DNA from: Escherichia coli
Lineage (GTDB): Bacteria > Pseudomonadota > Gammaproteobacteria > Enterobacterales > Enterobacteriaceae
Strand: one strand, 5' to 3'
Length of the DNA stretch: 64,000 nt
NCBI RefSeq assembly: GCF_024700885.2
Contig: NZ_CP117016.1
In this document: one piece after another, positions 11,350 to 58,189 of the stretch
How positions within the stretch are numbered: the first letter of the stretch is position 1
Layout: each line of letters opens with the position of its first letter
Notes under the pieces: generated by a model
Told to the model about the DNA's origin: nothing
Databases searched by the model: none
Seen by the model: only the letters and a program-made list of their open reading frames with translations
Program-made: the position numbers and the translations under genes

Positions 11350-11404
11350 GGTGATGCTGCCAACTTACTGATTTAGTGTATGATGGTGTTTTTGAGGTGC
11401 TCCA

Positions 11405-12102: not shown

Positions 12103-12118
12103 GTTGGAGTCATTACCG

Positions 12119-12274
12119 GAATGCCTGACGGAAATGAAATTTGAAGATTTGCGCGGCATGAAAATATCCGCCATCCGCAAACTGATTTCTGATGCGCTAA
12201 AGAAAGATCTTCAGCGTCGCAAAATGAGCGCACCGTATAAGGATTTGCTGGTGAAAAAAGTGGTCTTCCAGTAA
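12119..12274 (+). pseudogene. 3' remnant of a gene truncated by the IS1-associated deletion
   Basis: Open frame immediately after the IS1 right end encodes a C-terminal tail (...KISAIRKLISDALKKDLQRRKMSAPYKDLLVKKVVFQ*) with no upstream start context. Confidence 0.35.
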
Positions 12275-25837: not shown

Positions 25838-25913
25838 GCCGATATAGCTCAGTTGGTAGAGCAGCGCATTCGTAATGCGAAGGTCGTAGGTTCGACTCCT
25901 ATTATCGGCACCA
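25838..25913 (+). tRNA. thrW: tRNA-Thr (anticodon CGU)
   Basis: GCCGATATAGCTCAGTTGGTAGAGCAGCGCATTCGTAATGCGAAGGTCGTAGGTTCGACTCCTATTATCGGCACCA; cloverleaf with CGT anticodon; integration site for the downstream island. Confidence 0.95.
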
Positions 25914-26077
25914 TCACCTAGTTTTCCCAAGTCAACCCACATCAACAAAATCATTTAAAAACATATATATTACGTTGTTTTCATACGTTTGAGGTCAACC
26001 CTTGTCTCTTGAAATCAACACGCGGTTGGGGGCACAATCAGGGGCATGTTCTGTTCGGTCTAGGAAATGTGCCCCCA

Positions 26078-27268: not shown

Positions 27269-28089
27269 ATATTTTAAAAATTAATAATACTGATTCTCTG
27301 CTCAGAGATTACTACCAGTTGGATGAAGCTTCAGAAAAAATTGGTTGTAGTGAAAAGGATATACTCTGGTTTGCCAGAGAACGAGATGTAGAGCTATGCA
27401 TGGAATTCCATGATGATGAGTATGATGTTTCATGTGGTTTGAAGATTGATGGTCAAATGGATGAGTTCTTATCTAATCTGAAATATTTACCACGAGATAG
27501 AAATGGCAATATTATGTTGTCAGACTTAAGTTCTATAAGAATCCCTGATGAAGATAATTTAATTGATAAAAATGGTTTTATTCGATGTTTCATATCCGGT
27601 TTATGGGCTGTTGATTATGAATATAAAGATCTGTTAGTTAAGCATGAGGGGCAACCGGATTCCTGGCCTATTCATTTTCTACTGGCGGGTACGCCTAATA
27701 TAAATTGTAAGGTAATTCTTTATGTAAATTATGATGAAAAAGAAAATTATTATCTTTTTGAGGTTTTGTGGATTACAAAGGTACAGATTCAAAAATTCAT
27801 TGATATAGTCTTATGCGAACAAAAGCGGATAAAAAACGCCAATAAATATAAATCACAATCTGAGGCGCAAAAACAAAAACATGCTGTTCCTCGAGCTGAA
27901 ATACTCATGGCTATTATTTCGCTCTATCATCGTGATATGAGGCTAAGAAGAGAGAGTCCAGCAGCGATAGCTGATTATCTTTTTCAACATGCCAGTGAGT
28001 TCTGGCCTAAGACCGGAGAACCGCCTTTGAGCTATGATACTGTTGTTAGTTTGCTACGTAGTTGCATGAAAAACACTAAGTTTAACTAA
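27265..28089 (+). CDS. hypothetical protein (AT-rich island cargo, translationally coupled to integrase)
   Basis: 274-aa ORF whose ATG overlaps the integrase stop (ATGA); strongly AT-rich compared with flanking DNA; no recognisable motif. Confidence 0.55.
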   Translation: MNILKINNTDSLLRDYYQLDEASEKIGCSEKDILWFARERDVELCMEFHDDEYDVSCGLKIDGQMDEFLSNLKYLPRDRNGNIMLSDLSSIRIPDEDNLIDKNGFIRCFISGLWAVDYEYKDLLVKHEGQPDSWPIHFLLAGTPNINCKVILYVNYDEKENYYLFEVLWITKVQIQKFIDIVLCEQKRIKNANKYKSQSEAQKQKHAVPRAEILMAIISLYHRDMRLRRESPAAIADYLFQHASEFWPKTGEPPLSYDTVVSLLRSCMKNTKFN

Positions 28090-28214
28090 ATATTAACAAT
28101 TATTGTGGCTAATGATTTTGGATTTTTTTCATTAGTCACATTTTTCTCATTTATAACCTATGTTTTAATTTTCCGTGTTGAAGCCAATAGACTTAGATAA
28201 ACGGAGAATGATGA

Positions 28215-28421
28215 ATGTTATCTAAACATGATAATACTACTTTGCAACGACCTTCAATGGATTCTCTGATCGATATGAAGTTTATTACTTCCGATTGTTT
28301 ATTAAGTGATAAATGGATTTATCGATTGATTTCTCTGAATCGCTTTCCAAAACCTATAAAAATAGGTCGGATGTCACGATGGCGCGCTGCTGATTATTAT
28401 AAGTGGCGAGATGGGTTTTAA
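28215..28421 (+). CDS. alpA: AlpA/Vis-family phage transcriptional regulator (excisionase-like)
   Basis: 68 aa with the AlpA-like core ...RLISLNRFPKPIKIGRMSRWRAADYYKWRD. Confidence 0.7.
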   Translation: MLSKHDNTTLQRPSMDSLIDMKFITSDCLLSDKWIYRLISLNRFPKPIKIGRMSRWRAADYYKWRDGF

Positions 28422-28537
28422 GAAAACTCAGGTCAACATTTTGAGGGAATGAGAAATAAGGCAAGAGCAATTAATAAAGGGAATAGATTATCACCTACTC
28501 CCTAAGCCTTAATTGATAGTTAGTAATATTTAACTGA

Positions 28538-28711
28538 TTAGCCTTTAGGGTCAATCCCGCGTGATTGGAGTTCTTTGCGTAAAATTCTTTTAATCCAAGT
28601 TGCCAACGCGCTATCTCCATCTTTGCGCATTTCGTTTTCGAGTTGCAACCTAAAATCGTCGGTAAGACGCATTTGGAATGGTGGAGAACGTTTCTCTTGT
28701 GGTGTTGACAT
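28538..28711 (-). CDS. small Arc/MetJ-type (ribbon-helix-helix) DNA-binding protein, putative island repressor
   Basis: 57-aa minus-strand ORF (MSTPQEKRSPPFQMRLTDDFRLQLENEMRKDGDSALATWIKRILRKELQSRGIDPKG); below the ORF-track size cut-off; start codon overlaps the operator region. Confidence 0.45.
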   Translation of the reverse strand: MSTPQEKRSPPFQMRLTDDFRLQLENEMRKDGDSALATWIKRILRKELQSRGIDPKG

Positions 28712-28751
28712 GGTAATTACCCTAGAATATGATGACTACATGGTAATTACC
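28705..28751 (+). promoter_or_regulatory. sigma-70-like promoter (TTGACA-17-TATGAT) with two copies of the palindromic operator GGTAATTACC
   Basis: TTGACA at 28705-28710, 17-bp spacer, TATGAT at 28728-28733; catGGTAATTACC occurs at 28709-28721 and 28739-28751, 30 bp apart. Confidence 0.45.
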
Positions 28752-28842
28752 ATTGTAAGTATAGTTCGCTTGTAAAAGCAATGCCCGATTGTGCGGGAAC
28801 ACAAATCGGGCATTTAACCAACCGTTATAAGAGGTAACGAAG

Positions 28843-29019
28843 ATGGCTAAACAGAAGTGTACTTGGTTATTTGCGGCGATCAACCGCAGTCAACGCAATG
28901 CCCGTCCTGTGATGTTAAGGATCACCGCAGATAACGAGCGGTCAGCGCGGCGCAGACTTGCCCCGGACTATGTACTGAGCTTTGCCGGGCGCATTCCCTG
29001 CGGAGGTGAACATGCGTAA
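28843..29019 (+). CDS. small hypothetical protein (58 aa), first ORF of the rightward early transcript
   Basis: ATG with GAGG 8 nt upstream; MAKQKCTWLFAAINRSQRNARPVMLRITADNERSARRRLAPDYVLSFAGRIPCGGEHA; not in the ORF track (<60 aa). Confidence 0.3.
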   Translation: MAKQKCTWLFAAINRSQRNARPVMLRITADNERSARRRLAPDYVLSFAGRIPCGGEHA

Positions 29020-29371
29020 TTATCCGCACCCCGGCGAACGCTGGCAGCATGAACGTGGCTGGACGGTCACGATTATCCGATTAATAGAAGCATCGCCCTC
29101 TGTGGCACTGGTTAATCCTGAATTCAGCTGTGAAGTGCTGATACGTCATGACAGCGACAACCAGCTTTCTTCCTGCCCTCTGGCATGGTTTGAACAGCGG
29201 TATACGCGCCTGTTTGATGTACCGCTCTTTAAGCCTGCACCAGCTCCTGCAGGCGGTAGTGGTTCCGGCCCGCTGACACTGCATCCGTCTGTGCTATTTA
29301 TCCGCTGGCGGGAGCGTAGCATATGGCGTTCTGCTGAGCCTGACGACGGTCACTATTCAAAGTTTCTCTGA
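29012..29371 (+). CDS. hypothetical protein (island early region)
   Basis: ORF 28982..29371; ATG at 29012 with GGAGG 8 nt upstream; 119 aa, no recognisable motif. Confidence 0.4.
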   Translation: MRNYPHPGERWQHERGWTVTIIRLIEASPSVALVNPEFSCEVLIRHDSDNQLSSCPLAWFEQRYTRLFDVPLFKPAPAPAGGSGSGPLTLHPSVLFIRWRERSIWRSAEPDDGHYSKFL

Positions 29372-29402
29372 CAAAATACCGCTGAAAACGGAGTAATCCA
29401 CG

Positions 29403-29687
29403 ATGAATATTTCAAACGGGCACAACGGTGCTCAGGGCCACACTTTGCCTGAAAAACACAATACCGGTGCTTTTGCCTATGGGTTGTCAGAGGACAGTTT
29501 CGGAAAGCTGACCCGCGCAAGAAATGCCTGCGACATGCTCCAGCTTCTCTTTTCTGAATACCCGTCTCAGGCCGGAGCACTGGACGCTGGCTGTGCGCAT
29601 GGTGTCGCCGCGCTGATGGAGTACCTGCTGGCAGATTTGACGGATATTGCACACAGCTGCGCACTGATTGAAGGAGGTGCCAGATGA
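29403..29687 (+). CDS. hypothetical protein (island early region)
   Basis: 94-aa ORF, 4-nt overlap with the next ORF (operon-like). Confidence 0.4.
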   Translation: MNISNGHNGAQGHTLPEKHNTGAFAYGLSEDSFGKLTRARNACDMLQLLFSEYPSQAGALDAGCAHGVAALMEYLLADLTDIAHSCALIEGGAR

Positions 29688-30067
29688 ACCAGCCGCAGGT
29701 TTCCATTTTCCCGGCAGAAATGACCACCGCGCTTTACCGGCGGGCTATTGCTTCAGCATGGCGGCAGAAAATGCTGAACGAAACTGGCAGTGATCAGTAT
29801 GGTCCGCACAGCCTGACGGTGGAGCGTATTGAAATGGCCATTGCGCTGCATATCGAGTGCGTACTGATTAACGAGTACGGCGAAGTGCAGGGCGCCGCTG
29901 CCGCGCTGGCACTGCTGACTGACATGCTGGAGCCGTCACTGCTGACCGCGCCGCCGGTACTGACCGCGCGCGGCTGTGAAGTGATGGCGGAGATGTACCG
30001 CACGCTTCCGGCGGCCTTTGATGACTTCTGCAGTACCGGTGTGACGTTGTATGAGGGGGAAGTATGA
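29684..30067 (+). CDS. hypothetical protein (island early region, precedes primase)
   Basis: 127-aa ORF, 4-nt overlaps with both neighbours. Confidence 0.4.
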   Translation: MNQPQVSIFPAEMTTALYRRAIASAWRQKMLNETGSDQYGPHSLTVERIEMAIALHIECVLINEYGEVQGAAAALALLTDMLEPSLLTAPPVLTARGCEVMAEMYRTLPAAFDDFCSTGVTLYEGEV

Positions 30068-32736
30068 CAATACAGACGGTTACGCAGATTTCAGCCGCCG
30101 CACGGGGGAAATGGCCCGTTATTCTGCAGATGCTGCGTATTGATGTACCTGAAAACGGCAGGCACGGTCCCTGCCCGAAATGTGGGGGCAAGGATCGTTT
30201 TCGCCTTGATGACCTTGACGGGCGCGGGACGTGGATCTGCAGCCAGTGTGGCAATGGTGACGGTCTGGATCTGGTTAAGCTCGTAACCGGTTACAGCGTC
30301 AGAAAGGCTGCGCAGGAGGTGGCGCAGGTGCTTAATGTGCCGAATATGCAGGAACTGCCTGTTAAGCCTGCCAGACAAAAAGCCCCTAAACGCGACATGG
30401 GTCTTACCGTGGCGGCGCTGATGAAAGAGAGCCACACGGGAGAAAGCGCCTATCTGACAGGAAAAGGGTTCGCCGGATACCCGGCCTCTCTGACCGGAAG
30501 CGTGCAGCATATCAGCGGTAAGGATTTCCCTGCCGGTTCCCTGCTGTTACCACTCACGACCAACACCGGAGCCGTGACCGGTGCACAGCTTATCGCCCCG
30601 ACGGGTGAAAAAAGCATACTGCCCGGCAGCACGATGAAAGGCGCGTTTGTGTCGCTCAGCCCGTTACCGTCTGAACCACCGGTACAGGTGGTGATTACCG
30701 AAGGTTACGCTACGGCGCTGACGGTAAGTCAGCTCACTGCCGGATGCGTAGTGGCTGCCATATCTGCGGGCAACCTGCCCAATGTGGCGCAGTCGCTGCG
30801 GGCACGCTGGCCTGAGGTAAAAATTATCATCGCCGGTGATAACGATTTTCAGGACGGAGATGAGAATCCCGGCAGAGCCTTTGCTGAACGGGCGGCAAAA
30901 GCTGTTGGCGGCTGGATGACGCTGCCACCAGGAGAGATTAAGGCTGACTGGAATGACTTTCATCGGGAGCACGGTATTACCCGTGCCCGTGAAGCCTTTC
31001 GCAACGGTCTGGTACTGTGCGGGGAAGGCCGCACGCAACTGCCGCACGGGTTCCGTCTTACCCAGGAATATCTCTGGTATGAAAAGCAGGTACAGCGCAA
31101 CGGTGAGACGGAGATCCAGAACGTCAAAATATGCAGCCCGCTGCGCGTGACGGCAATCACCTGCGATGCCGATGGCGGTAACTTCGGACGACTGCTGGAA
31201 TGGGAAGATACGTGGGGTGAGTGTCGCCGCTGGGCGATGCCGATGGAAATGCTGAGCGGCAGTGGTGAGGAACTGCGCCGGGTACTGCTGGTTAACGGGC
31301 TGTCTTATATCAGCACCACCGGTGAGGCACGCGCACGCCTGATGGAATATATCTCACTGTGTAAACCGGAACGCCGCGTGACCTGCGTCAGTCGTACTGG
31401 CTGGCATGGTCAGGTTTACGTCCTGCAGGATGAGGTCAGCGGTGAAGGTGCAGAGGGTGTCATTCTCCAGACCACTTCCGTGCAGGGGCGTGATTTCCGC
31501 GTGTCGGGCACAACAGAGGAATGGCGGGAGCATGTATCCCGCTACTGTACCGGCAACTCCCGCGTGGCATTTGCTGTCAGCCTGGCCTTTGCTGCACCAC
31601 TGTTACGGCTGGTTGGTATGGACGGCGGCGGCTACCACCTCAAAGGGGAATCGACAGACGGTAAGACCACCACCATGAAAGCGGCAACCTCCGTCTGCGG
31701 CGGGCCTGACTACTGGCAGACATGGCGGGCCACCGGCAACGCGCTGGAGGGATGCGCCAGCCGCCGCAACGATGCCGCCATGATGCTTGATGAGATCCGG
31801 GAAGTTGACGGACGCGAGGCAGGCAATATCGCCTACATGCTGGCAAACGGTCAGGGCAAGGGCCGTGCCGGTACGGACGGTGAGCTGCGTACCCGTAAGC
31901 AGTGGCGCCTGTTGTTCTTTTCAACTGGCGAGTTGTCTCTGACCGAACATGCGGCAAAGGCCGGTGAGCGTACTTTTGCCGGGATGGAAGTCAGGATGAT
32001 CCAGATCCCCAGCGATTCCGGGAAGTTTGGCGTTTTTGAGGAGCTGCACGGCTTCGACAGCGGCAAGGCTCTGGCAGAGCATCTTGAATGGGCCACGTCC
32101 TGCTACTACGGTTCGCCGTTCCGGGAGTGGCTGAAAGCACTGACCGCTGATCTTAACGGACTAACGGCACAGGCAAAATCGCTGATGAAGGAATATGCTG
32201 CCGCCCTGACTCCGAAAGATGCAGGCAATCAGGTGGGCCGGGCTGTGAACCGCTTTGCTCTGGTGGCGATGGCAGGTGAACTGGCAACCCGTCTGGGTAT
32301 CACCGGCTGGCCTGAGGGTGAAGCACTGCGGGCAACCCGCGTCTGCCTGAACGCATGGCTGAAAGATCGCGGGCACACCGCCAATCAGGAAGATATCGCC
32401 GCACTGGAGCAGGTTCGCAGTTTCTTTACCGCGAATCAGTACAGCCGCTTTGCAGACTGGTATGACGAGCGCAACCGCCCCGGCAATATGGTGGGCTGGC
32501 GCAGGGTGGAGAAAGGCAGTACCGCGCAGGGCACGGAAGCTGTCACTACGTTCTATGTCATGCCGTCCGGCTGGAAAGAAATCTGCAGGGGATTTGACCC
32601 GCGCAAGGTGGCGCGTCTGTGCGCAGATCGTGGATACCTGCTGCCCTCCACAGATGGCAAACTCCAGACAACCATTCGCCCGCCAGAGATGAATCCCCGC
32701 AGGCTCTATGTCTTCAACAGCGAGGTGCCTGGTTAA
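30064..32736 (+). CDS. P4 alpha-type primase/helicase (zinc-binding primase domain, Toprim, P-loop NTPase)
   Basis: 890 aa; N-terminal Cys4 zinc motif (CPKCGGKDRF...CSQCGNGDG), Toprim-like acidic region, Walker A GESTDGKTT. Confidence 0.88.
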   Translation: MTIQTVTQISAAARGKWPVILQMLRIDVPENGRHGPCPKCGGKDRFRLDDLDGRGTWICSQCGNGDGLDLVKLVTGYSVRKAAQEVAQVLNVPNMQELPVKPARQKAPKRDMGLTVAALMKESHTGESAYLTGKGFAGYPASLTGSVQHISGKDFPAGSLLLPLTTNTGAVTGAQLIAPTGEKSILPGSTMKGAFVSLSPLPSEPPVQVVITEGYATALTVSQLTAGCVVAAISAGNLPNVAQSLRARWPEVKIIIAGDNDFQDGDENPGRAFAERAAKAVGGWMTLPPGEIKADWNDFHREHGITRAREAFRNGLVLCGEGRTQLPHGFRLTQEYLWYEKQVQRNGETEIQNVKICSPLRVTAITCDADGGNFGRLLEWEDTWGECRRWAMPMEMLSGSGEELRRVLLVNGLSYISTTGEARARLMEYISLCKPERRVTCVSRTGWHGQVYVLQDEVSGEGAEGVILQTTSVQGRDFRVSGTTEEWREHVSRYCTGNSRVAFAVSLAFAAPLLRLVGMDGGGYHLKGESTDGKTTTMKAATSVCGGPDYWQTWRATGNALEGCASRRNDAAMMLDEIREVDGREAGNIAYMLANGQGKGRAGTDGELRTRKQWRLLFFSTGELSLTEHAAKAGERTFAGMEVRMIQIPSDSGKFGVFEELHGFDSGKALAEHLEWATSCYYGSPFREWLKALTADLNGLTAQAKSLMKEYAAALTPKDAGNQVGRAVNRFALVAMAGELATRLGITGWPEGEALRATRVCLNAWLKDRGHTANQEDIAALEQVRSFFTANQYSRFADWYDERNRPGNMVGWRRVEKGSTAQGTEAVTTFYVMPSGWKEICRGFDPRKVARLCADRGYLLPSTDGKLQTTIRPPEMNPRRLYVFNSEVPG

Positions 32737-32769
32737 GGCTTTGCGTGAGTCTTATTTATTAAGGGTAAC

Positions 32770-32960
32770 AGGTGAAACAGGTGGAACAACCGTATTTTAC
32801 AGGGCTGAACCTGTTCCACCTTCTGAAATAGTGAGGTGGAACAGATGTAACGCCAGCCAATCCGCTGTTCCACCTTGTTACCCGCGATGTTCCACCGGTG
32901 CAGTGTATATAAATGCCTTATAAAACAAAGCCGTAACACATGTTTCACCTGTTCCACCGC
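32770..32960. repeat. iteron cluster (repeated GGTGGAACA/TGTTCCACC motif), candidate replication origin/crr
   Basis: At least six copies of the TGTTCCACC core in both orientations within about 190 bp directly downstream of the primase gene. Confidence 0.55.
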
Positions 32961-33046
32961 ATCAGGGACATAAAGCAGACTGAAACAGAGGGCATTTTTA
33001 TCTGGCTGGCTTTCATAGCCACGTCTGAATAACCGCAAGCGCCCGT

Positions 33047-33102
33047 TGTGCCAGCCACCACACACTGAACACCGATAGTGTGCTTGTGTCAGCCACGACA
33101 CA
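33047..33102 (+). promoter_or_regulatory. two TGT-N12-ACA dyads (Ogr/Delta-type activator sites), candidate late promoter
   Basis: TGTgccagccaccacACA (33047-33064) and TGTgtcagccacgacACA (33085-33102) upstream of the sid-like gene. Confidence 0.5.
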
Positions 33103-33136
33103 ATTGACGTAACGAACCAACCCGACAGGAGAAGTC

Positions 33137-33880
33137 ATGAACAATACCGCAGTAAATAACAACCTTTCCACTTTTCCGGCTGTAACGCAGCGGGCACTGG
33201 AAACCATGAACACAGCCAGAAACGCATGGCTTGAAGCACGTCGTCAGCAGAAAGCGGCAGCGGATAATATTGCGACAATCCGCCAGCGTCGCGCTGAAAT
33301 GGAAGCCACGACGAACACACTGAATGAGGAGTGGCGCACGCTGTTTCGTGAAAGTCAGGGCGTGATCTCAAAGGAAATGAAAAAACTGCGCACGGAAATT
33401 GCGCTGGGACGAGAAACGCTTGAGGATTTTGATGAGCTGCTGGCGGCTCAGGAAAGCGAAAATGCACTTTTGCCGCAGAAAGCTGCAGAATTAGCCGGAA
33501 AGTATATCCACGCGCATAACATTCTTGTGGATATTCGCGCAAAACAAATCTGGGAGGATTTTATGCAGTCGCATGGAAAAGTGCTTATTCAGACGCTGAG
33601 CCTGCTTAAATCCACAATGGGCCGGGAAGCCAGTGCCGTTGTGGGTGTGGTGAATTCAGTTAATGACCCGGACACAGTGCTGAAAGACTTTATTCATAAA
33701 TATATCACCAGACCGGCTCTGGCTAACGATGCGATGCCTGAGCAGGACCCGGTGTTTAAACTGGCGGGAGTTGCCCCGGATTATGCGGCGCGTCTGGATT
33801 TCAGTAATCAACTCTCTCCGGCAGCTATGCATAAAATTAAGGTTCGTCAGGAACTTGCTGAGAAGGAGAAAGCAGTATGA
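33137..33880 (+). CDS. Sid-like capsid size-determination (external scaffold) protein
   Basis: 247-aa helix-rich protein; first gene of the late operon downstream of the TGT-N12-ACA dyads and immediately upstream of the Psu-like gene; assignment by context and size. Confidence 0.45.
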   Translation: MNNTAVNNNLSTFPAVTQRALETMNTARNAWLEARRQQKAAADNIATIRQRRAEMEATTNTLNEEWRTLFRESQGVISKEMKKLRTEIALGRETLEDFDELLAAQESENALLPQKAAELAGKYIHAHNILVDIRAKQIWEDFMQSHGKVLIQTLSLLKSTMGREASAVVGVVNSVNDPDTVLKDFIHKYITRPALANDAMPEQDPVFKLAGVAPDYAARLDFSNQLSPAAMHKIKVRQELAEKEKAV

Positions 33881-34428
33881 CGGCCCGAGGCACGCCTGAC
33901 CAGGCACTTACCAGTTTTCGGAATGCCCGTATTCTGTGGGCCGGACATAATGAGAGCCGAAAAGCCGTTGAACAACAGATAACATCTCTCCTCGCTGCCA
34001 CAGAAAAACCAGCAGATTATGCCCGACAGCTCGAATTACTGCGGGAACGTCTGGATGTGCTGAAATGGCAAATTAACTGTGCTGCGCGCGAATGCATTTA
34101 CTCGCAGCATTTACTGATGGAGGCCTGCACAGAAGCCGCTCTCAGCAATTTTATGCAGGCGAATGGGGCAGCCCTGACATCTGCACTGGCTCCGTTCCTG
34201 AAGGGGCGCGGAGGGGTTGACGTTGCGTCCCGTATATTACGCAGTGCTCTGGTTCGCCAGCTGGCAATAACACCGCCTGAATTTGCCGGGGATTATCGTG
34301 AGATCCTGGATGAATCCGGTTTGATGCTTGACCCCGGGATGATTCGTGATTGCCAGGGTTCTTACACCCCGGCACAACATCTGCGTTTTCAGCAACGCCT
34401 GAATGACATTAACGATATACAGGAGTGA
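33877..34428 (+). CDS. Psu-like polarity-suppression / capsid-decoration protein
   Basis: 183 aa; motifs recalled from P4 Psu (LKWQINCAAR, HG.ALA.ALAP, TPAQHLRFQQR); 4-nt overlap with the sid-like gene. Confidence 0.65.
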   Translation: MTARGTPDQALTSFRNARILWAGHNESRKAVEQQITSLLAATEKPADYARQLELLRERLDVLKWQINCAARECIYSQHLLMEACTEAALSNFMQANGAALTSALAPFLKGRGGVDVASRILRSALVRQLAITPPEFAGDYREILDESGLMLDPGMIRDCQGSYTPAQHLRFQQRLNDINDIQE

Positions 34429-34433
34429 TATTA

Positions 34434-34706
34434 ATGGCACTTAAATGTCCGGAATGCGGTACAGTTGCACACGCCAGAACAGCAGCCTATGAAGCTCCGT
34501 CAGTTAAACGCTCGTGGTATCAGTGCCAGAATCTGGAATGTTCCTGCACATTTACGGCACTGGAGAGTGTGGATAAGATAATCATGAAACCCCGGCGCAA
34601 TGAACAGGAACCAGACAAATCACAAACCCCGGTAAAACAACAGCAAACGCTCAATCGCTATGGCTCCGCGTCAAAACTGTCAAGCCGTCAGCAGATTCCT
34701 GTCTGA
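34434..34706 (+). CDS. Ogr/Delta-family zinc-finger late transcriptional activator
   Basis: ORF 34425..34706; start trimmed to MALKCPECG with AGGAG upstream; Cys4 pattern CPECG...CQNLEC typical of Ogr/Delta. Confidence 0.75.
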   Translation: MALKCPECGTVAHARTAAYEAPSVKRSWYQCQNLECSCTFTALESVDKIIMKPRRNEQEPDKSQTPVKQQQTLNRYGSASKLSSRQQIPV

Positions 34707-34727
34707 TTAGAAAAAAAATGCCCACGT

Positions 34728-34753
34728 AATCCCGGTCGAGTACTGGGATTTTT
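34728..34753 (+). terminator. rho-independent terminator-like hairpin after the late operon
   Basis: aatccc-ggtcgagtact-gggatt stem-loop followed by a T run. Confidence 0.4.
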
Positions 34754-35289
34754 AACACCTTACCCCTGGCTGGCCTGAGAGCGCATGAGTGCATGTCTAT
34801 GGCGCATGAAAACGCATGAGTCTCATGCACCATTTTTGACGCGAAAGCCCTTGTGTGGTGGCTTCTGAGACGATTAATGAGGTGCATGAAAACCAGTCTG
34901 TTAAGTGAAGCGGGAAGGCGTGCGGGGCTGCGCACGTAGCAGGGTTAAATGGTCAATTCTGGCGCAGCTCACGACATTAAGTCAGCCTCAATAGATGTAC
35001 GTGTTGGTAGGGGTAATTCGCTACTTTTTTGTATCCTAAATTGTATGGTTTGATGCTGATCGTTTCTTCACCGCACCTGCAGAGATATCAATTCAATGTG
35101 GACAAAAATGAGTCTGGCTCTTTCCGTATCACTAGAATTGCCAGTATTGTTAGGGATGATGCCCATATCATACGGAGGGAGCCAGTGGGGGCGATTGCGC
35201 GTGGAAAGTGCTTTGGATTTATTCATCGGTTTTATGATTCTACATAAGGAGCAAAGGTACTTGTATCGTATGAAAAAAAATAGTATAGA

Positions 35290-35520
35290 TATAATGCTCC
35301 TTACGCGTTATGGCATAGTTATATGCTAGTCGGGCGATTAGCCAGACTCGAACTTATTGAACGGTATTAGGGTTGCGCTTGGTGTGCCTCTGGATTGCAC
35401 TCCATGCTGTCGCGCAATCCAGAGGCACACCAAGCGCTTCCTTTAGGTAAGTGAGTAAAAACAGCACCTTCTTCGATTTATGATGAAGGTGCTGCAATCG
35501 TAACGTTTTTTGTATACACG
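35290..35520 (+). ncRNA. candidate retron msr-msd non-coding RNA
   Basis: Non-coding stretch directly upstream of the effector-RT pair with a perfect 24-bp stem (35375-35398 / 35414-35437, 15-nt loop) and a second 10-bp stem (35462-35471 / 35485-35494); exact ends and a1/a2 repeats not resolved. Confidence 0.55.
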
Positions 35521-35529
35521 GATAGTATA

Positions 35530-36498
35530 GTGGCTGAGACATACGAAGATAAAGTTGCTAATCATGTTTCAGAGTGGGAAATGGAAAATTTCCGTGTATG
35601 TTATGATGATCAGGTTATTTTCTTATGTGGTGCGGAAGTACTTCCTCAAGGAAGTGTTCAGACTTCAATGAGAGGGCATTTTTATCACTATTGCCTGAAT
35701 AAAAATAAAGATATAGCTGATAAAATAATTCTTGCCGAAAACTTCAAAAAATATCTTCAAAATAATCATTATCCAGACTTAATAACTTTTGAGCATGATG
35801 TTGCAAGTATATCTAGTTTAGTTGTTATTTTCTTGGAAAGCAGTGGTTCAATTGCTGAGTTAGGTGTTTTCTGTAATATTAGTGATGTCAATAAAAAATT
35901 ATTGATATTTGTTCCATCAGATGAAGTTGAAGGTGACAAGAAAGAGTCTTTCATTTACTTAGGGCCTTTATTGTTTTTAAAAGAAAAGGTCAATGAAAAA
36001 GCATTTAAGATTTATCCAAAACCCACTAATGGTTCTGATTACTCCGAGCATTTAGAGATTATGGCTGATGACTTGGCTGAACTATTACCTAGAAGTGGTA
36101 AGTTTGAAAGCTTCGATCCTGACAATTTAGGGCATATAGCTTTTCTTATATGCAGAATTGTGCATTTAGTAATGCCTATTAAGCTAAAGGAAATATTAAA
36201 TTGTTTAAAAATAATAGGTATCAATAAATATACTCTGACTGAGGTTGAAAGAATTTTGTTTTTATTGGAAACATTGGGTTTTATAAATATTTATCCGTAT
36301 GGCGATTTAAAATACTATTATTCAATGCAAGCCAGGCAAAATCTTAAATTAGGGAAAAATAAAACCGGATTCACAATCGATGAGGCTGGTATTTTTACTG
36401 ATATTAGTGTTTTTATCAATGACAATAAATTATGTAGTGATAAAAAAAGACGGCTGGTTTTGAAAGGCATTAAGGAGAAGCATAATGGACATAATTAA
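35530..36498 (+). CDS. retron effector candidate: nucleoside 2-deoxyribosyltransferase-like (NDT-like) protein with C-terminal putative DNA-binding region
   Basis: 322 aa (GTG start in the ORF track); Rossmann-like N-terminus with ESSGSIAELG motif resembling the NDT-family catalytic Glu region; overlaps the RT gene by 14 nt; AT-rich. Confidence 0.6.
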   Translation: MAETYEDKVANHVSEWEMENFRVCYDDQVIFLCGAEVLPQGSVQTSMRGHFYHYCLNKNKDIADKIILAENFKKYLQNNHYPDLITFEHDVASISSLVVIFLESSGSIAELGVFCNISDVNKKLLIFVPSDEVEGDKKESFIYLGPLLFLKEKVNEKAFKIYPKPTNGSDYSEHLEIMADDLAELLPRSGKFESFDPDNLGHIAFLICRIVHLVMPIKLKEILNCLKIIGINKYTLTEVERILFLLETLGFINIYPYGDLKYYYSMQARQNLKLGKNKTGFTIDEAGIFTDISVFINDNKLCSDKKRRLVLKGIKEKHNGHN

Positions 36499-37417
36499 AA
36501 AAATCGCAGATGAAACTCTAATGCCGGTATCAAAAGTATCTGCTTTTATATTTACAGCCCCATATAGATATAAAGTATATCCCATCCCCAAAAGGAATGG
36601 TGGGTTTAGGGAGATTGCTCAACCGTCAAGGGCATTAAAGTTTATGCAAAGGATTGTTATTGCTGAACTAGAGAAAGTACTTAAGGTTCATGAAAACGCA
36701 TATGCTTATGTCAAAGGACGTAGTATAAAAGATAATGTGGAAAAGCATCAAAGAAACTCTTATATTTTGAAAGTTGATTTCTGCGACTTTTTTAATAGCA
36801 TAAACCCTTACGACCTTGAGTTATGTTTAAAAAACAATGGGTTAGACTCATTGTTAAGCTCACAAGAATTATTGAATAAACTTTTTTTCTATAAGAAAAG
36901 TAAAAGAGGTGCTTTATCAATGAGCATCGGGGCACCTAGTTCTCCATTTTTGTCAAATGCGATTATGTATAAGTTTGATTCAGTCATTAGTGATATGTGT
37001 TCAAATAAAAATATTACTTATACAAGATATGCTGATGATCTTACATTTTCTACTAATGAAAAAGGTATTTTGTATGAATTCATACATGAAATAGATAAAG
37101 TTCTTGAGGAGATAGATAGTCCTAAATTAAAACTAAATGATAAGAAAACCATATTTGCATCTAAAAAATGCAATCGTCATATAACAGGAATTGTTATTAA
37201 TAACGAAGAAAAACTTTCAATTGGTAGAGATAAAAAACGTTACTTAAGTAGTTTAATTCATAAATTCTCGCTTAATGCACTTAATGAGGAAGGAGTTGAA
37301 CATTTAAAAGGGTATTTGGCGTATGTAAATAAAATTGAACCTTCATTCATTAGCAGAATGAAAAGGAAATATGGAGTCGAAGTTGTCAACTCCATAATCA
37401 CATTTAATCCATTATAA
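36485..37417 (+). CDS. retron-type reverse transcriptase
   Basis: 310 aa; RT motifs YRYKVYPIPKRNGGFREIAQPSRALK, VDFCDFFNSI, GAPSSPFLSNAIM, TRYADDLTFS (YADD active site), HITGIVI; distant resemblance to the Ec86 RT. Confidence 0.9.
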   Translation: MDIIKKIADETLMPVSKVSAFIFTAPYRYKVYPIPKRNGGFREIAQPSRALKFMQRIVIAELEKVLKVHENAYAYVKGRSIKDNVEKHQRNSYILKVDFCDFFNSINPYDLELCLKNNGLDSLLSSQELLNKLFFYKKSKRGALSMSIGAPSSPFLSNAIMYKFDSVISDMCSNKNITYTRYADDLTFSTNEKGILYEFIHEIDKVLEEIDSPKLKLNDKKTIFASKKCNRHITGIVINNEEKLSIGRDKKRYLSSLIHKFSLNALNEEGVEHLKGYLAYVNKIEPSFISRMKRKYGVEVVNSIITFNPL

Positions 37418-37894
37418 ATGTGAACTTATTATATTTATAATGGTTGTGCTTTTTTCTTGTACCTTAGGGGTGTAAAAGAATGTCATCATGAAGATAATTA
37501 AAAAATGAATGGCAATAAGAGTAATAGGTAACATTTTTTCAATATCACTTAAATGGCGATGCCTTTTTTGTGTAATAACTTCCTCTTCTCTTTTGAAAGG
37601 AGTTATACCTATCTTGACCTCCATCTCCTGAATTACTGTAAACTTAGCAGCATTAATTCTTTTATAGGAAGTAATTAGATTTATCCAATAGATATTAATT
37701 ACGACTCCAGCGAGAGAGATTAAGATTACCCAAATAGGCTGTATTGTTGGCTTTAAAGAAAAATATCCAACAAGCGGTAAAATAGAAGAGTTTAAGGCTA
37801 ATAAAAATGTATTTGACTTAAGTCTTCGATCACTTATTCTATCCGCCATCTCAACGCATGTTTTATATATTTCTATGACTTTATCATCCGTCAC
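37412..37894 (-). CDS. small three-TM membrane protein of unknown function (candidate defence/abortive-infection effector)
   Basis: 160 aa with three predicted hydrophobic helices; AT-rich; convergent with the RT gene, its stop codon overlapping the RT's last codon. Confidence 0.55.
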   Translation of the reverse strand: MTDDKVIEIYKTCVEMADRISDRRLKSNTFLLALNSSILPLVGYFSLKPTIQPIWVILISLAGVVINIYWINLITSYKRINAAKFTVIQEMEVKIGITPFKREEEVITQKRHRHLSDIEKMLPITLIAIHFLIIFMMTFFYTPKVQEKSTTIINIISSHL

Positions 37895-38280: not shown

Positions 38281-38496
38281 TTAAGCCAATTGCTGCCGCC
38301 ATTCCTTGACGTGGTCAATCAGGGCGCGGAGCTTTGGTGCAATATTGCGACGCTGTGGGAAATACAGATAGAAGCCCGGAAATTGTGGAAGAAAGTCATC
38401 AAGCAGCGATACAAGCTTACCGCTTTCAATATATGGCCTGAAAGTTTCCTGAGTGGCAATTGTTATGCCTGCGCCGGCAAGAGCCAGCCTCAACAT
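38281..38496 (-). pseudogene. LysR-family regulator, C-terminal fragment only
   Basis: 71-aa ORF matching only the C-terminal effector-domain end of the LysR paralogues in this window (...FPGFYLYFPQRRNIAPKLRALIDHV); no HTH N-terminus. Confidence 0.55.
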
Positions 38497-38689
38497 CAGA
38501 CGCAGATCATTCTGCTAATCCCACCGATGCTTCGGTCTGGAGTGGTAAATTAATATTGGACACAGTTTTATTTTCTCTCTTTTTCGAGGGCTATATGAAC
38601 AGGAAGAATACATCCCTAAGCGGTTAATGCTGGCGTAATCAATAGACCAGCATTAATCACAGATGATTACCAATCAGACAGAAATGGTT

Positions 38690-38810
38690 AAATCGTCGAA
38701 TTCATATTTAATACGTTTTCTTACGCCGCTGAGCAACTTGAAAGCAGGAAAAGGATGTATATTTTAAATATCAGTGAAGTGAACAGTTTATTGCCGTTAT
38801 TAATAGAGAT
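38690..38810 (-). pseudogene. degraded duplicate of the rpmJ2 (ykgO) 3' end and ykgR
   Basis: Close nucleotide similarity to 57200-58160; ykgR-like frame disrupted by a deletion (C-terminal IVVFVAIVEYAYLFLHLY retained, N-terminus out of frame). Confidence 0.4.
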
Positions 38811-39079
38811 GGAGGAATAAATAGGCGTATTCTACTATTGCAACAAAAACAACGATAATGATCAGTTTTCATAATGAAGTAACCTGACAGATATAAAAAT
38901 GTTGATTGAGGCTAAATGCCCGGATGAAGGTTGTCGAGGGAGCCAGGTGGTTTTTTCTTTTGGGTGATCTCCATTGCTGGATAGTCCTCTCTTTCTCGCT
39001 CAAAGCAGACCCTGGAATTGAATGCAGAGGGACTACCTGACACAATTTTGCACAGTGAAGAGTCGGTCGTTATTAACGT

Positions 39080-39964
39080 TCAGATTTTCAATGTATCAAT
39101 GACCATCCGCAGGGCGGGGGAGACGTTGCGATGAGGGTAATAGAGAAACAATCCCTCCATTCGCAGGCTGTAACGCTGCAACACCCTGATAAGCTTACCG
39201 TGTTCTAAATCATCCGCGACCAGTTCAACAGGAACATAGGCCAATCCGAGGCCCAGCCGGGCTGCTTCTGCTTCCATATAGCTGTCGGATAAGGCCCATT
39301 GCCCTTCAGGGCGATGAGTGATTTTTTTATCATCCTGATTGAGTTCCCACTGGTATACGCTGCCGTCGGCAAACTGATAGGCGATACAGGGATGCGCCTT
39401 TAAATCCGCCGGGGTTTGCGGAAAACCATAGCGACGAAAATGTTCCGGAGTCCCCACAATTGCCATCTCCATATCGGGCGTGATGCGTACCGCGACCATA
39501 CCCTGGCCGACTTCAGGCCCCAGGCGGACACCTGCATCGAATCTTTCCTCGATGATATCGACGAACCGGCTCTCATTTATCAGTTCAAGCCGGATATCAG
39601 GATATCTCTGTTTAAATACCGCCAGCTTTGGCAGCAGGCATTTATCAATCGCGTGCTGGCTGGCATTGATACGCACCGTGCCGGAGGGCGTCTCTCGATA
39701 GTGCGCCAGCGTGGCAAGCCCAAGATCTAACATTTCAAATCCAGATGCCGTCTTCTGGTAGAGCTGCTCGCCTGCTTGTGTCAGCGACAGTTTACGCGTG
39801 GTGCGCACTAGCAGCTGGACGCCCAGCCTTTCTTCAAGCTCGCGAACAGAACGGCTGACTCCTGACTGAGCAAGACCCAGCCGCTGAGCCGCTGCGGTAA
39901 AGCTGCCTTCCCGCACCACCTGCATAAACAGGTACAGCTCGTTGTAGTTCTCCCTTTTCGCCAT
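39080..39964 (-). CDS. LysR-family transcriptional regulator
   Basis: 294 aa; N-terminal HTH (FTAAAQRLGLAQSGVSRSVRELEERLGVQLL) and LysR substrate-binding domain; divergent from the hydrolase gene. Confidence 0.85.
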   Translation of the reverse strand: MAKRENYNELYLFMQVVREGSFTAAAQRLGLAQSGVSRSVRELEERLGVQLLVRTTRKLSLTQAGEQLYQKTASGFEMLDLGLATLAHYRETPSGTVRINASQHAIDKCLLPKLAVFKQRYPDIRLELINESRFVDIIEERFDAGVRLGPEVGQGMVAVRITPDMEMAIVGTPEHFRRYGFPQTPADLKAHPCIAYQFADGSVYQWELNQDDKKITHRPEGQWALSDSYMEAEAARLGLGLAYVPVELVADDLEHGKLIRVLQRYSLRMEGLFLYYPHRNVSPALRMVIDTLKI

Positions 39965-40129: not shown

Positions 40130-41279
40130 TTGTTTTTTATGGGGATTTTTATGAAAGCCTTCACCCGCACGCTAAAAACCGCGATGCCGACCATGCTGCT
40201 TTTCGCATCATTAAGTGGAGTCACGACAATGAGTTATGCTGATTCAACCAATCCTAATGCCCCTGTGTCCATGACAGATAAATGGGATAAAACGTTCGCC
40301 GAGAGCCAGAAAGTCGATCACCGTAAAGTCTCGTTCCCGAACCGATATGGCATCACCTTAGTGGGCGATCTTTACCTGCCTAAAGACCGTGGCGATCGCA
40401 AGCTGGCGGCGATTGCGGTCAGTGGGCCATTTGGCGCGGTGAAAGAGCAATCCAGCGGCTTGTATGCGCAGACGCTGGCGGAACGAGGGTTTGTTACCCT
40501 GGCGTTCGATCCTTCTTACACCGGGGAAAGCGGCGGCTATCCGCGAAACGTCGCCTCACCGGATATCAACACTGAAGATTTCAGCGCGGCGGTGGATTTC
40601 TTAGGGCTGCAAAAAGAGGTAGATCGCAACCGTATCGGGCTGCTCGGTATTTGTGGCTGGGGCGGCATGGCGCTGAACGACGTGGCGATGGATACCCGCG
40701 TTAAAGCGGTAGCTACCAGCGTGATGTATGACATGAGCCGGGCGATGGGTCATGGTGTGGGGGATGGCAAAGACCGTTATTCTACCGCCGACCGTCGTGC
40801 CGTTCTGCAATATCTGAATGAACAGCGCTGGAAGGATGCGCAGAGCGGAACGTTCGCTCACGGTGGTCATGATATTAATGTCGACAGCAACGGCAAGGTC
40901 AGTGCGGGCGAGCGCATTCTGCCAGAAACGCTGCCGGCAAATCCTCATCCGGTACTGAAAGAGTTCTTTGACTACTATCGCATGCCGCGCGGCTTCCACG
41001 AACGTTCCGTTAACTCTACCGGGGCGTGGACGGCAACGATGCCGCTGGAATATGCCGCTGTTGAGCTACGCCAGTGAAATCACCATCCCGACGCTGATTG
41101 TGACCGGTGAGAAAGCGCATTCACGCTATTTTGCTGAAGATGCTTACAAGGTGGTTGGCAGTAACGACAAAGAGCTGGTGGTGGTACCAGGGGCAAATCA
41201 CGTGGACCTGTACGATAACGTGGCCGGAAAAATACCTTTCGCGAAGTTCGAACAATTTTTCCAGACCAAACTGAAATAA
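40130..41279 (+). pseudogene. alpha/beta (dienelactone-type, Cys-nucleophile) hydrolase, frameshifted by a 13-bp duplication
   Basis: ORF 40130..41077 carries the N-terminal and core domain (GICGWGG elbow); the C-terminus with catalytic His (GANHVDLYD) continues in ORF 40968..41279 in another frame; tandem duplicate atgccgctg(gaat)atgccgctg at 41039-41060. Confidence 0.6.
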
Positions 41280-41354
41280 AACCTCTCCTGAATTGATGCA
41301 AAGCCACCGGCCATAGGCTGGTGGCTTTTATCCTGATCTTTGTGAAATTTCACT

Positions 41355-42548
41355 ATGTCGACACTAAGCCAAACACTATCACCTCATCATCAGCGCGCAT
41401 ACTGGGGCGGTATTTTTGCCATGACCCTGTGCGTGTTTGTGCTGATTGCTTCTGAATTTATGCCCGTCAGCCTGCTCACGCCGATTACCCGCGATTTAGG
41501 CGTGACGGAGGGGCTGGCAGGGCAGGGGATTGCTATCTCCGGCGCGCTGGCGGTTCTGACCAGCCTGACGCTTTCAACGCTAGCTGGAAAGATGAATCGT
41601 AAGTTCCTGCTGCTGGGGATGACGGTTCTGATGGCCGTATCGGGGCTTATTATTGCGCTGGCTTCCAGTTATCTGATGTATATGGTCGGTCGTGCGATGA
41701 TTGGTGTGGCTATTGGCGGATTCTGGTCGATGTCAGCGGCAACGGCGATTCGTCTGGTGCCGCAGCATCAGGTCACGCGTGCGCTGGCAATTTTCAACGC
41801 CGGTAATGCGCTGGCGACGGTCGTGGCCGCACCGCTGGGAAGCTATCTGGGGGCTACGGTCGGATGGCGAGGCGCTTTCTTGTGCCTGGTGCCCATCGCG
41901 GTTGTCGCCTTTATCTGGCAGTGCATCAGCCTGCCAAGCATGGATGCGAATAAAAGCCACACTTCATGTGGCGCGGTATTCCGCTTATTTAGCCGCCGCA
42001 TGGTTGTGGTCGGCATGATAGCCTGCTGCCTGTTTTTCATGGGGCAGTTTGCACTATTCACCTATGTGCGCCCGTTTCTGGAGTCGGTGACACGGGTTAA
42101 TTCCTTAGGCTTGTCGTTGATTTTGCTGATTATCGGCGTGGCCGGTTTTATTGGCACGCTGGTTGTTTCGGCATTTCTCAACAGAAAATTCTACCCCACG
42201 CTGATGGCCATACCCGGACTGATGGCCGTCATTGCTATCGGTCTGATGCTGACCGGGCATCACGTCTGGACGGTCTCGCTGCTGTTAGGACTCTGGGGCA
42301 TGCTGGCCACCGCCGCGCCAACCGGATGGTGGACATGGATTGCGCGTACGTTGCCTGACAACGCCGAAGCCGGAGGCGGGCTCATGGTCGCGGTGATTCA
42401 GCTCTCCATCGCCCTTGGATCAACAGCAGGAGGCATCGTATTTGACCGCCTTGGCTGGCAGAGCACGTTTGCTATGAGTAGCGTGCTGCTCCTTTGCGCT
42501 GGCGTACTGACCTTTGTTACCGCACGCCAGAAGGCCGGTGCGCTTTAG
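41355..42548 (+). CDS. MFS-family transporter
   Basis: 397 aa with 12 predicted TM helices. Confidence 0.85.
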   Translation: MSTLSQTLSPHHQRAYWGGIFAMTLCVFVLIASEFMPVSLLTPITRDLGVTEGLAGQGIAISGALAVLTSLTLSTLAGKMNRKFLLLGMTVLMAVSGLIIALASSYLMYMVGRAMIGVAIGGFWSMSAATAIRLVPQHQVTRALAIFNAGNALATVVAAPLGSYLGATVGWRGAFLCLVPIAVVAFIWQCISLPSMDANKSHTSCGAVFRLFSRRMVVVGMIACCLFFMGQFALFTYVRPFLESVTRVNSLGLSLILLIIGVAGFIGTLVVSAFLNRKFYPTLMAIPGLMAVIAIGLMLTGHHVWTVSLLLGLWGMLATAAPTGWWTWIARTLPDNAEAGGGLMVAVIQLSIALGSTAGGIVFDRLGWQSTFAMSSVLLLCAGVLTFVTARQKAGAL

Positions 42549-48552: not shown

Positions 48553-48800
48553 TGCATTGAATAATAAAAATGGCGCAAATGCAGCGCCATTTTTATAGGT
48601 TAAAAACATTGCTTTTTACTTTCTGAAGCAGATAGCCAGTGAGTACATCGCGCTACTTCAGGATGCTGTAGATCCGGAGAACACTATAGAGGAAGATGCA
48701 TTGTTGCTGGCAGATGGAAGAAGTTTCGGGTTTTGTTATCCCTGAAAAACGAAGCCCCGCGGTTATAGCTGGCGGGGCAGTGCAATTAATTATTGCATAT

Positions 48801-58087: not shown

Positions 58088-58189
58088 TTAATAGAAATGG
58101 AGAAATAAATAGGCGTATTCTACAATTGCGACAAAAACAACGATATTAATCAGTTTATGACTGATTTGCTGTACTTTATTCTCTTTCAT
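58088..58189 (-). CDS. ykgR: small membrane protein YkgR (33 aa)
   Basis: Minus-strand ORF MKENKVQQISHKLINIVVFVAIVEYAYLFLHFY; below the ORF-track size cut-off. Confidence 0.55.
   Translation of the reverse strand: MKENKVQQISHKLINIVVFVAIVEYAYLFLHFY

What the first reader, a model, noticed from the sequence alone, without database searches (positions are those of the whole stretch)
41039..41060. 13-bp tandem duplication frameshifts a Cys-hydrolase gene
atgccgctg-gaat-atgccgctg: removing 13 bp restores a continuous frame joining ...GAWTATMPL to LSYASEITIPTLIVTGE... and the catalytic His region. The gene is therefore a recent pseudogene, or the duplication is an assembly error.
Basis: seen in the sequence. 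Interest (0 to 1): 0.35.

Follow-up and report, generated by a model that had tools for sequence, protein, structure and literature searches.

The report
Eight-base deletion breaks a hydrolase gene
In this E. coli strain a gene for a probable secreted hydrolase has been inactivated by a recent 8-base deletion, not by the 13-base duplication first proposed; this is an ordinary lineage-specific pseudogene that RefSeq already flags as frameshifted.

Summary
The observed sequence is real: atgccgctg (41039-41047), gaat, atgccgctg (41052-41060), with a broken reading frame. The proposed cause is wrong. About 910 other E. coli genomes, 17 other Enterobacterales genera and Pseudomonas PA2218 all read ATGCCGCTG-TCATTTATGAAT-ATGCCGCTG (MPLSFMNMPL). 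The 9-bp repeat is therefore a native feature spaced 21 bp apart, and the window has lost 8 bp (TCATTTAT) between the copies. Strain 1190 matches the window over 6,950 bp with zero mismatches apart from this one 8-bp gap.

The window is E. coli MLI114 (ST349), a Trycycler assembly polished with Illumina reads. The same junction occurs in at least four independently assembled public datasets, and the exact truncated protein is on about 25 contigs. This is not an assembly error.

The frame breaks after residue 299 of 378, adds 9 wrong residues and stops. The product loses two core strands and the invariant His353, while Cys168 at the nucleophile elbow is kept.

Verdict: a real, recent, lineage-specific loss-of-function deletion in an uncharacterised PA2218/YcjY-like alpha/beta hydrolase. 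It is ordinary and of low interest.

The parts
39080..39964 (-). Divergently transcribed LysR-family regulator, intact (294 aa); the likely regulator of the hydrolase and MFS genes
   Evidence: ORF. RefSeq WP_001119037.1 is identical in MLI114 and HYM1. Pfam HTH_1 + LysR_substrate. The regulatory role is inferred from the divergent arrangement only.
40151..41077 (+). Truncated hydrolase ORF (308 aa): native residues 1-299, then 9 out-of-frame residues (EYAAVELRQ), then TGA. The start at ATG 40151 gives a conserved N-terminus that looks like a signal peptide. RefSeq starts at 40229.
   Evidence: The exact product P0003 is in Logan/ENA. N-terminus conserved across genera. RefSeq annotates the gene as 'frameshifted'.
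40652..40654 (+). Codon TGT for Cys168 in the GICGWGG motif, the putative nucleophile; retained in the truncated product
   Evidence: Invariant in 25 sequences. Aligns with the Ser of GLSMGG in 8B4U/9PJB. Lies between strand 157-166 and helix 170-180 in the model.
41039..41047 (+). First native ATGCCGCTG copy (codons M297 P298 L299)
   Evidence: present in all intact orthologues.
41047..41048 (+). Deletion junction: 8 bp (TCATTTAT, gene positions 898-905) are missing between these two bases; no flanking microhomology
   Evidence: Alignment A1. Zero-mismatch comparison with strain 1190. Microhomology test.
41048..41077 (+). Out-of-frame tail (9 codons) and premature stop codon
41052..41060 (+). 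Second native ATGCCGCTG copy (codons M304 P305 L306 in the native frame)
41052..41279 (+). Orphaned C-terminal coding remnant in the native frame (75 aa from ATG 41052; native residues 304-378). It includes strand 317-322, helix 328-337, strand 343-348 and the C-terminal helix.
   Evidence: The exact 75-aa product P0016 is on 26 contigs. Secondary structure.
41199..41201 (+). Codon CAC for His353 in GANHVDLYD, the putative catalytic His; no longer in frame with the N-terminal part
   Evidence: Invariant. Conserved in PA2218 and YcjY and aligned with the His of GGDHV in 8B4U.
41309..41326 (+). Terminator-like hairpin followed by a T-run, just after the hydrolase stop codon
   Evidence: a consensus scan only; 2 found against 1.8 expected, so weak evidence.
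41421..42548 (+). Downstream MFS transporter, intact (375 aa by RefSeq; the ORF could start at 41355)

Best explanation
The window is the chromosome of E. coli MLI114 (ST349). The accessory locus between the thrW island and paoD carries a LysR regulator, a hydrolase and an MFS transporter. In the hydrolase gene an 8-bp segment (TCATTTAT, codons S300-F301-M302 in part) was deleted from an otherwise unchanged, common intact allele. The two ATGCCGCTG copies are native codons (MPL...MPL) that normally lie 21 bp apart; the deletion brought them to 13 bp apart and so created the look of a duplication. The -8 frameshift ends translation after 299 native and 9 foreign residues. The product keeps the Cys168 nucleophile elbow but lacks two core beta-strands, the His353 loop and the C-terminal helix, so it is very probably inactive.

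Shown: the deletion, its direction (polarity), its presence in independent assemblies, the truncation, and the conservation of the lost residues. Inferred: loss of activity, periplasmic location from the signal-peptide-like N-terminus, a Cys-His catalytic mechanism, and a spontaneous origin of the deletion (no repeat- or hairpin-based mechanism is evident).
For: Intact orthologues are 8 bp longer (1179 vs 1171 bp), and alignment A1 shows TCATTTAT missing. In the 121-bp junction search, 910 of 913 matching records fall in the 90-95% identity band, and the listed rows all span 129 bp (the intact length). Two records are 80-90% identical, and only MLI114 matches at 100%. The window is 100% identical to MLI114 over 25 kb. 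Strain 1190 (L012) differs from the window over 6,950 bp by one 8-bp gap and no mismatch, and seven intact-allele contigs have 0 SNPs in the gene. MPLSFMNMPLL is conserved in 17 Enterobacterales genera and in PA2218 (TPLSFMNMPIL), so the intact state is ancestral. The exact truncated 308-aa product and the 75-aa remnant are on about 25-26 contigs (42 index blocks) in Logan and ENA. The junction was verified in DNA from DRR481270, SRR30129151, SRR35176401 and metagenome ERZ28646433, at 99.98-100% identity to the window. The MLI114 assembly used Trycycler, medaka and Polypolish with Illumina reads (PMC10198576). RefSeq marks the CDS 'frameshifted'. C168 and H353 are invariant. The model shows which elements are lost.
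Against: MLI114's own reads were not examined, and it is not known whether any of the Logan runs is MLI114 itself. No biochemical data exist for this protein or its solved homologues in the library searched, so 'inactive' and 'Cys-His hydrolase' remain inferences. The acid member of a catalytic triad was not identified. The structure model has only moderate overall confidence (mean pLDDT 62), although the C-terminal region is confident. No mechanism for the deletion is evident: there is no microhomology and no hairpin.
Confidence: 0.95

Rival explanations
1. One reading: a 13-bp tandem duplication (atgccgctggaat) was inserted into an ancestral ...TATMPLLSYASE... gene and frameshifted it.
For: The 9-bp repeat at a 13-bp offset is present, and removing 13 bp restores an open frame of 345 aa.
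Against: Only 9 of 13 bases repeat, and TRF finds nothing. Intact alleles are +8 bp, not -13 bp. The 7 residues the model omits (SFMNMPL) are conserved from E. coli to Pseudomonas. The predicted 345-aa ancestor is absent from the 15-billion-protein collection, whereas the +8 repair is on at least 1000 contigs.
Confidence: 0.01
2. Sequencing or assembly artefact: the 8 bases are present in the organism but were dropped by the assembler or the polisher.
For: Among 5,426 complete E. coli genomes only this one record shows the junction. MLI114's own reads were not inspected.
Against: The identical junction is present in independent short-read assemblies from different archives and in a metagenome. 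An 8-bp loss in non-homopolymer sequence is not a typical Nanopore or Illumina error. The assembly was a consensus of 20 long-read assemblies polished with Illumina reads. Only two other frameshift-flagged CDSs (ykgL and the prfH fragment) occur among the 57 features in the surrounding 50 kb.
Confidence: 0.02
3. The break is tolerated or bypassed: either the 308-aa and 75-aa pieces reassemble into a working split enzyme, or ribosomes shift frame at the site.
For: The ATG at 41052 opens the native frame 25 nt before the upstream stop codon, so translational coupling is conceivable. The allele persists in about 25 or more datasets, with at least two different upstream island contexts.
Against: There is no slippery sequence at the site. 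Only a 'GGA' lies 2 nt before ATG 41052, which is a poor Shine-Dalgarno spacing. Conserved residues S300-N303 would be missing from both pieces. The split falls inside a low-confidence lid-to-core connection, with the core strands divided between the two chains. The flanks are 99.98-100% identical, so the carriers are simply clonal.
Confidence: 0.02

Closest known systems
PA2218 of Pseudomonas aeruginosa (PDB 2HDW, 'hypothetical protein', structural-genomics entry)
   Same: Full-length homologue (E = 8e-125; 62% identity in alignment A2). It shares GICGWGG, SFMNMP, GE(K/R)AHSRYF and GA(N/S)HVDLYD.
   Different: Different genus. The window copy is truncated after residue 299. PA2218 has no assigned function in the literature searched.
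E. coli YcjY (PDB 5XB6, 'uncharacterized protein')
   Same: Same subfamily (E about 1e-43). Cys at the elbow (GICAGAG) and GANHMDLYD are conserved.
   Different: Only distantly related in the lid region. It lacks the SFMNMP segment and the N-terminal extension, and it is a core K-12 gene rather than an accessory gene near thrW.
Dienelactone hydrolase family (Pfam PF01738), the textbook Cys-His-Asp alpha/beta hydrolases
   Same: Alpha/beta fold with Cys in place of Ser at the nucleophile elbow. There is a weak Pfam DLH match over residues 146-195 of the query scanned.
   Different: The score of 18.8 bits is below the gathering cut-off of 21. The elbow motif is G-x-C-x-W-G-G rather than G-x-C-x-G-G. 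The acid residue was not identified. Substrate unknown.
Ordinary strain- or lineage-specific frameshift pseudogenes in E. coli, as flagged by NCBI PGAP
   Same: A small out-of-frame indel in an accessory gene, an intact allele common elsewhere, and a 'frameshifted' annotation in RefSeq.
   Different: Nothing distinguishes it, except that the deletion happens to bring two native 9-mers close enough to look like a duplication.

Membership tests
   Only 9 of 13 bases are shared; the second 'unit' reads atgccgctgttga. TRF finds no array.
   Intact orthologues carry both 9-mers and are 8 bp longer.
Frameshift pseudogene caused by a small deletion | Orthologues have an uninterrupted ORF, and the lesion length is not a multiple of three | tested here: met
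   The intact ORF is 1137 bp in 57 of 60 evenly sampled records. The window lacks 8 bp.
Frameshift pseudogene caused by a small deletion | The derived state can be polarised by outgroups | tested here: met
   SFMNMP is present in 17 other genera and in PA2218.
Frameshift pseudogene caused by a small deletion | The lesion is real in the organism, not an assembly artefact | tested here: met
   The same junction is in four independently assembled datasets, and the exact product is on about 25 contigs. MLI114's own reads were not examined.
Frameshift pseudogene caused by a small deletion | Loss of function of the product | not testable with these tools
   Inferred from the loss of residues 300-378, which include the invariant H353 and two core strands.
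Alpha/beta-hydrolase fold, PA2218/YcjY-like subfamily | Significant full-length sequence similarity to solved members | tested here: met
   2HDW E = 8e-125; 5XB6 E = 1e-43.
Alpha/beta-hydrolase fold, PA2218/YcjY-like subfamily | Nucleophile elbow (strand, nucleophile, helix) with a conserved nucleophile | tested here: met
   C168 is invariant, aligns with the Ser of GLSMGG, and lies between strand 157-166 and helix 170-180.
Alpha/beta-hydrolase fold, PA2218/YcjY-like subfamily | Catalytic His after the last core strand, in the same polypeptide as the nucleophile | tested here: not met
   H353 is invariant in the family, but in the window allele it lies downstream of the frameshift and is not part of the 308-aa product.
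Alpha/beta-hydrolase fold, PA2218/YcjY-like subfamily | Acid residue (Asp/Glu) of the catalytic triad | tested here: inconclusive
   The usual post-beta7 position reads GEKA. E323 is invariant in A2, but YcjY has Ser there. The tools return no model coordinates, so distances could not be measured.
Dienelactone hydrolase family (Pfam PF01738) | Score at or above the Pfam gathering threshold | tested here: not met
   18.8 bits against a cut-off of 21, E = 0.0013.
Dienelactone hydrolase family (Pfam PF01738) | Cys nucleophile | tested here: met
   C168 is at the elbow. This is by homology only; no activity data exist.

The most novel reading that the evidence does not exclude
The AT-rich stretch TCATTTAT between the two native ATGCCGCTG copies could be a recurrent indel site through which different E. 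coli lineages independently inactivate this secreted Cys-hydrolase: an 8-bp deletion in the ST349 lineage, a +1 A in SRR22895602, and a 68-bp deletion ending at the same spot in a metagenome. That would hint at selection for loss of the enzyme in some hosts. The three lesions are real in the assemblies. However, the last two were found through a search that could only detect lesions within about 15 bp of this site, and complete genomes show the gene intact in 57 of 60 sampled records.
Probability: 0.06. Interest if true: 0.3.

Novelty: already known. Interest (0 to 1): 0.07.

Why it matters
It matters little biologically. It is one more lineage-specific loss-of-function mutation in an uncharacterised accessory gene, and the RefSeq record already flags it as 'frameshifted'.

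Its use is methodological. A short direct repeat next to a frameshift invites a 'duplication' reading, but comparison with orthologues shows the opposite event: a deletion that pulled two native repeats together. The deletion could serve as a simple marker for this ST349 sub-lineage.

The intact family (PA2218/YcjY-like, invariant Cys168 and His353, probable signal peptide, next to a LysR regulator and an MFS transporter) remains functionally unassigned despite two crystal structures.

Tried and rejected
1. Tandem Repeats Finder on 40900-41200 found nothing.

2. A mechanism for the deletion. There is no flanking microhomology. DNA folding of the intact site shows no structure beyond shuffled controls (z = -0.07 and -0.98). 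Slippage between the two 9-mers would remove 21 bp in frame, which is not what is seen.

3. Literature on YcjY and PA2218. No functional characterisation was found in the held library.

4. MLI121, the close relative 14 cgMLST alleles away. Its chromosome CP117016 is not in the collection, so the age of the deletion within ST349 could not be narrowed that way.

5. The indel-hotspot idea. Two further independent lesions were found at the same site (L016 +A, L017 68-bp deletion). They were discounted because of ascertainment bias and because complete genomes are almost all intact. L018 and L019 are merely contig ends.

6. Pfam and NCBIfam naming. Only weak or sub-threshold matches were found (PETase-like 32.7 bits, Hydrolase_4, DLH below cut-off; UilS lactonase 64.8 against a cut-off of 400). 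No specific function can be assigned.

7. A structure search was not run, because sequence search already gave a solved homologue at E = 8e-125.

Full report
**Observation**

An ORF entering from upstream stops at TGA 41075-41077, and the remainder of the gene continues in another frame to 41279.

Only 9 of the 13 bases are repeated. The second "unit" continues ttga, and Tandem Repeats Finder reports no array. Close 9-bp repeats are not rare here. The window has 15 exact direct repeats of at least 9 bp at offsets 9-30, three of them at offset 13, against about 4 in Markov-1 shuffles. The repeat on its own is unremarkable; the frameshift is the real feature.

**Where the window comes from**

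The window is the reverse complement of the E. coli MLI114 chromosome NZ_CP117013.1, at 100% identity over 25 kb. MLI114 is an ST349, CTX-M-15 isolate from a soldier's stool in Mali (PMC10198576).

The gene lies in an accessory locus between the thrW island and paoD. The order is a LysR regulator (39080-39964, minus strand), the hydrolase, then an MFS transporter (to 42548). About 912-939 of 5,426 complete E. coli genomes carry the hydrolase. RefSeq already annotates the MLI114 copy as "alpha/beta hydrolase, frameshifted".

**What the lesion really is**

Other E. coli copies span 1179 bp against the window's 1171 bp, so they are 8 bp longer, not 13 bp shorter. The alignment shows that intact alleles read ACG ATG CCG CTG TCA TTT ATG AAT ATG CCG CTG TTG (T M P L S F M N M P L L), and the window lacks TCATTTAT. 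The two ATGCCGCTG copies are therefore native codons that normally sit 21 bp apart. The deletion brought them to 13 bp apart and produced the look of a duplication.

In a 121-bp search across the junction, 910 of 913 matching records fall in the 90-95% identity band, and the listed rows all span the intact 129 bp. Two records are 80-90% identical, and only MLI114 matches at 100%.

Contigs encoding the "repaired" protein are abundant (2,695 index blocks) and have no SNP in the gene relative to the window. Strain 1190 (CP023386.1) is identical to the window over 6,950 bp apart from this single 8-bp gap.

The direction of the change is clear. MPLSFMNMPLL is conserved in 17 other Enterobacterales genera, and Pseudomonas PA2218 has TPLSFMNMPIL.

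That exact sequence is not among about 15 billion proteins, whereas the +8 repair occurs on at least 1000 contigs.

**Real mutation or assembly error?**

MLI114 was assembled as a Trycycler consensus of 20 long-read assemblies, then polished with medaka and with Polypolish using MiSeq reads. Only two other frameshift-flagged CDSs (ykgL and the prfH fragment) occur among the 57 features in the surrounding 50 kb.

More directly, the exact 308-aa truncated product and the exact 75-aa C-terminal remnant are each recorded on about 25 contigs (42 index blocks) from Logan and ENA. I checked the DNA junction in DRR481270, SRR30129151, SRR35176401 and the metagenome assembly ERZ28646433. All carry it and are 99.98-100% identical to the window over 5-7 kb.

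One of these contigs (L005) has a different island upstream (CbeA/CbtA in place of the retron), so the allele has persisted through some island turnover.

The deletion is therefore a real, lineage-level mutation. It appears once among the complete genomes simply because no other close relative of MLI114 is in that collection; the next best match to window 1-25000 is 97% identical. MLI114's own reads were not examined, and MLI121 (14 cgMLST alleles away) is not in the collection.

**Consequence for the protein**

Almost all homologues are 378 aa, and their N-terminus (MKAFTRTLKTAMPTMLLFASLSGVTTMSYA/DSTN) is conserved across genera. It has the charged, then hydrophobic, then small-residue pattern of a Sec signal peptide. 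That reading is an inference, because no signal-peptide predictor was available. The true start is therefore probably ATG 40151 rather than RefSeq's 40229.

The closest solved structures are PA2218 (2HDW, E = 8e-125) and E. coli YcjY (5XB6, E = 1e-43). Both are deposited as uncharacterised, and I found no functional paper on either.

Cys168 (codon 40652-40654, motif GICGWGG) is invariant and aligns with the nucleophile Ser of GLSMGG in 8B4U and 9PJB. In the AlphaFold model it sits between strand 157-166 and helix 170-180, which is the classic nucleophile elbow. His353 (codon 41199-41201, motif GANHVDLYD) is invariant and aligns with the His of GGDHV.

The Pfam matches are weak: PETase-like at 32.7 bits, and DLH at 18.8 bits, below its cut-off of 21. 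The protein works like a dienelactone-hydrolase-type enzyme but is not a demonstrable member of that family.

The window allele keeps residues 1-299, adds EYAAVELRQ and stops. It loses strand 317-322, helix 328-337, strand 343-348, the His353 loop and helix 366-376, all modelled at pLDDT 80-94. Loss of function is the strong inference.

**Mechanism of the deletion**

The deleted octamer occupies gene positions 898-905. It has no flanking microhomology, and the intact site forms no DNA structure beyond shuffled controls. Slippage between the 9-mers would have removed 21 bp in frame, which did not happen. I therefore treat it as a spontaneous small deletion of unknown mechanism.

**A side lead that did not hold up**

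A 77-aa fragment (MNMPLL..., P0018) led to two further independent lesions at the same spot. One is a +1 A (TCAT^TTAT) in SRR22895602, on a different allele backbone. The other is a 68-bp deletion with CAT microhomology that ends at ...GT|CATTTAT, in a metagenome.

This looks like a hotspot, but that fragment can only arise from lesions within about 15 bp of its Met, so the clustering is built into the search. Two further "hits" (L018, L019) were merely contig ends. In an evenly spaced sample of complete genomes, 57 of 60 records have the intact 1137-bp gene. I keep the hotspot idea only as a low-probability reading.

**Comparison with what is known, and verdict**

The event is an ordinary frameshift pseudogene in an accessory gene, and PGAP already flags it. 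The assembly-error alternative is effectively excluded. Novelty: already known. Interest: low.

Noticed in passing
window 25838-37894: A P4-like satellite prophage is integrated next to tRNA-Thr (25838-25913). It comprises an integrase (26078-27268), a TOPRIM/DUF927 primase (30064-32736), a polarity-suppression protein (33877-34428) and an ogr/Delta protein (34434-34706). It carries a retron as cargo: an msr RNA (Rfam RF00170, 53.4 bits, 35296-35365, + strand), a St85-family effector (35530-36498) and a reverse transcriptase (36485-37417), with a RipA-family membrane protein on the opposite strand (37412-37894). An independent contig with the same hydrolase deletion (L005) has a CbeA/CbtA toxin-antitoxin pair here instead.
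   Followed up: partly
window 40151 vs 40229: RefSeq starts the hydrolase at ATG 40229 (352 aa). The 26 codons upstream are conserved across at least 17 genera and look like a Sec signal peptide (MKAFTRTLKTAMPTMLLFASLSGVTTMSYA/D), and GenBank and Prodigal calls use 378 aa. The RefSeq start is probably too far downstream, and the enzyme is probably periplasmic.
   Followed up: partly
L016 2480-2520 (Logan SRR22895602) and L017 250-300 (ENA ERZ28588282): Two other independent frameshifts hit the same hydrolase at the same few bases: a +1 A inside TCAT^TTAT, and a 68-bp deletion with CAT microhomology that ends at CATTTAT. This is probably an ascertainment effect of how they were found, but an unbiased census was not possible.
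   Followed up: partly
window ~11082-12274: The lateral-flagellar (Flag-2) gene cluster is interrupted by an IS1B element (about 11405-12102). The element is flanked by a fragment of a sigma-54-interacting regulator and a fragment of a FliL-family gene, so this cluster is degraded in this strain.
   Followed up: no
window 38281-38511 and 38800-38868: Remnants of a second LysR substrate-binding-domain gene and of ykgR lie between the island and the intact LysR regulator. A full ykgR copy lies further on (about window 58088-58189). This suggests past rearrangement at the island boundary.
   Followed up: no
E. coli genome hits: About 27 E. coli records carry a second, roughly 80-87% identical version of this hydrolase (for example protein P0102), and some genomes have two places. 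A divergent paralogue or allele of the gene therefore circulates in the species.
   Followed up: no
window 48558-48758: A full-length match to Rfam IS009 (RF02111, 190.7 bits, + strand), near yagU/ykgJ.
   Followed up: no
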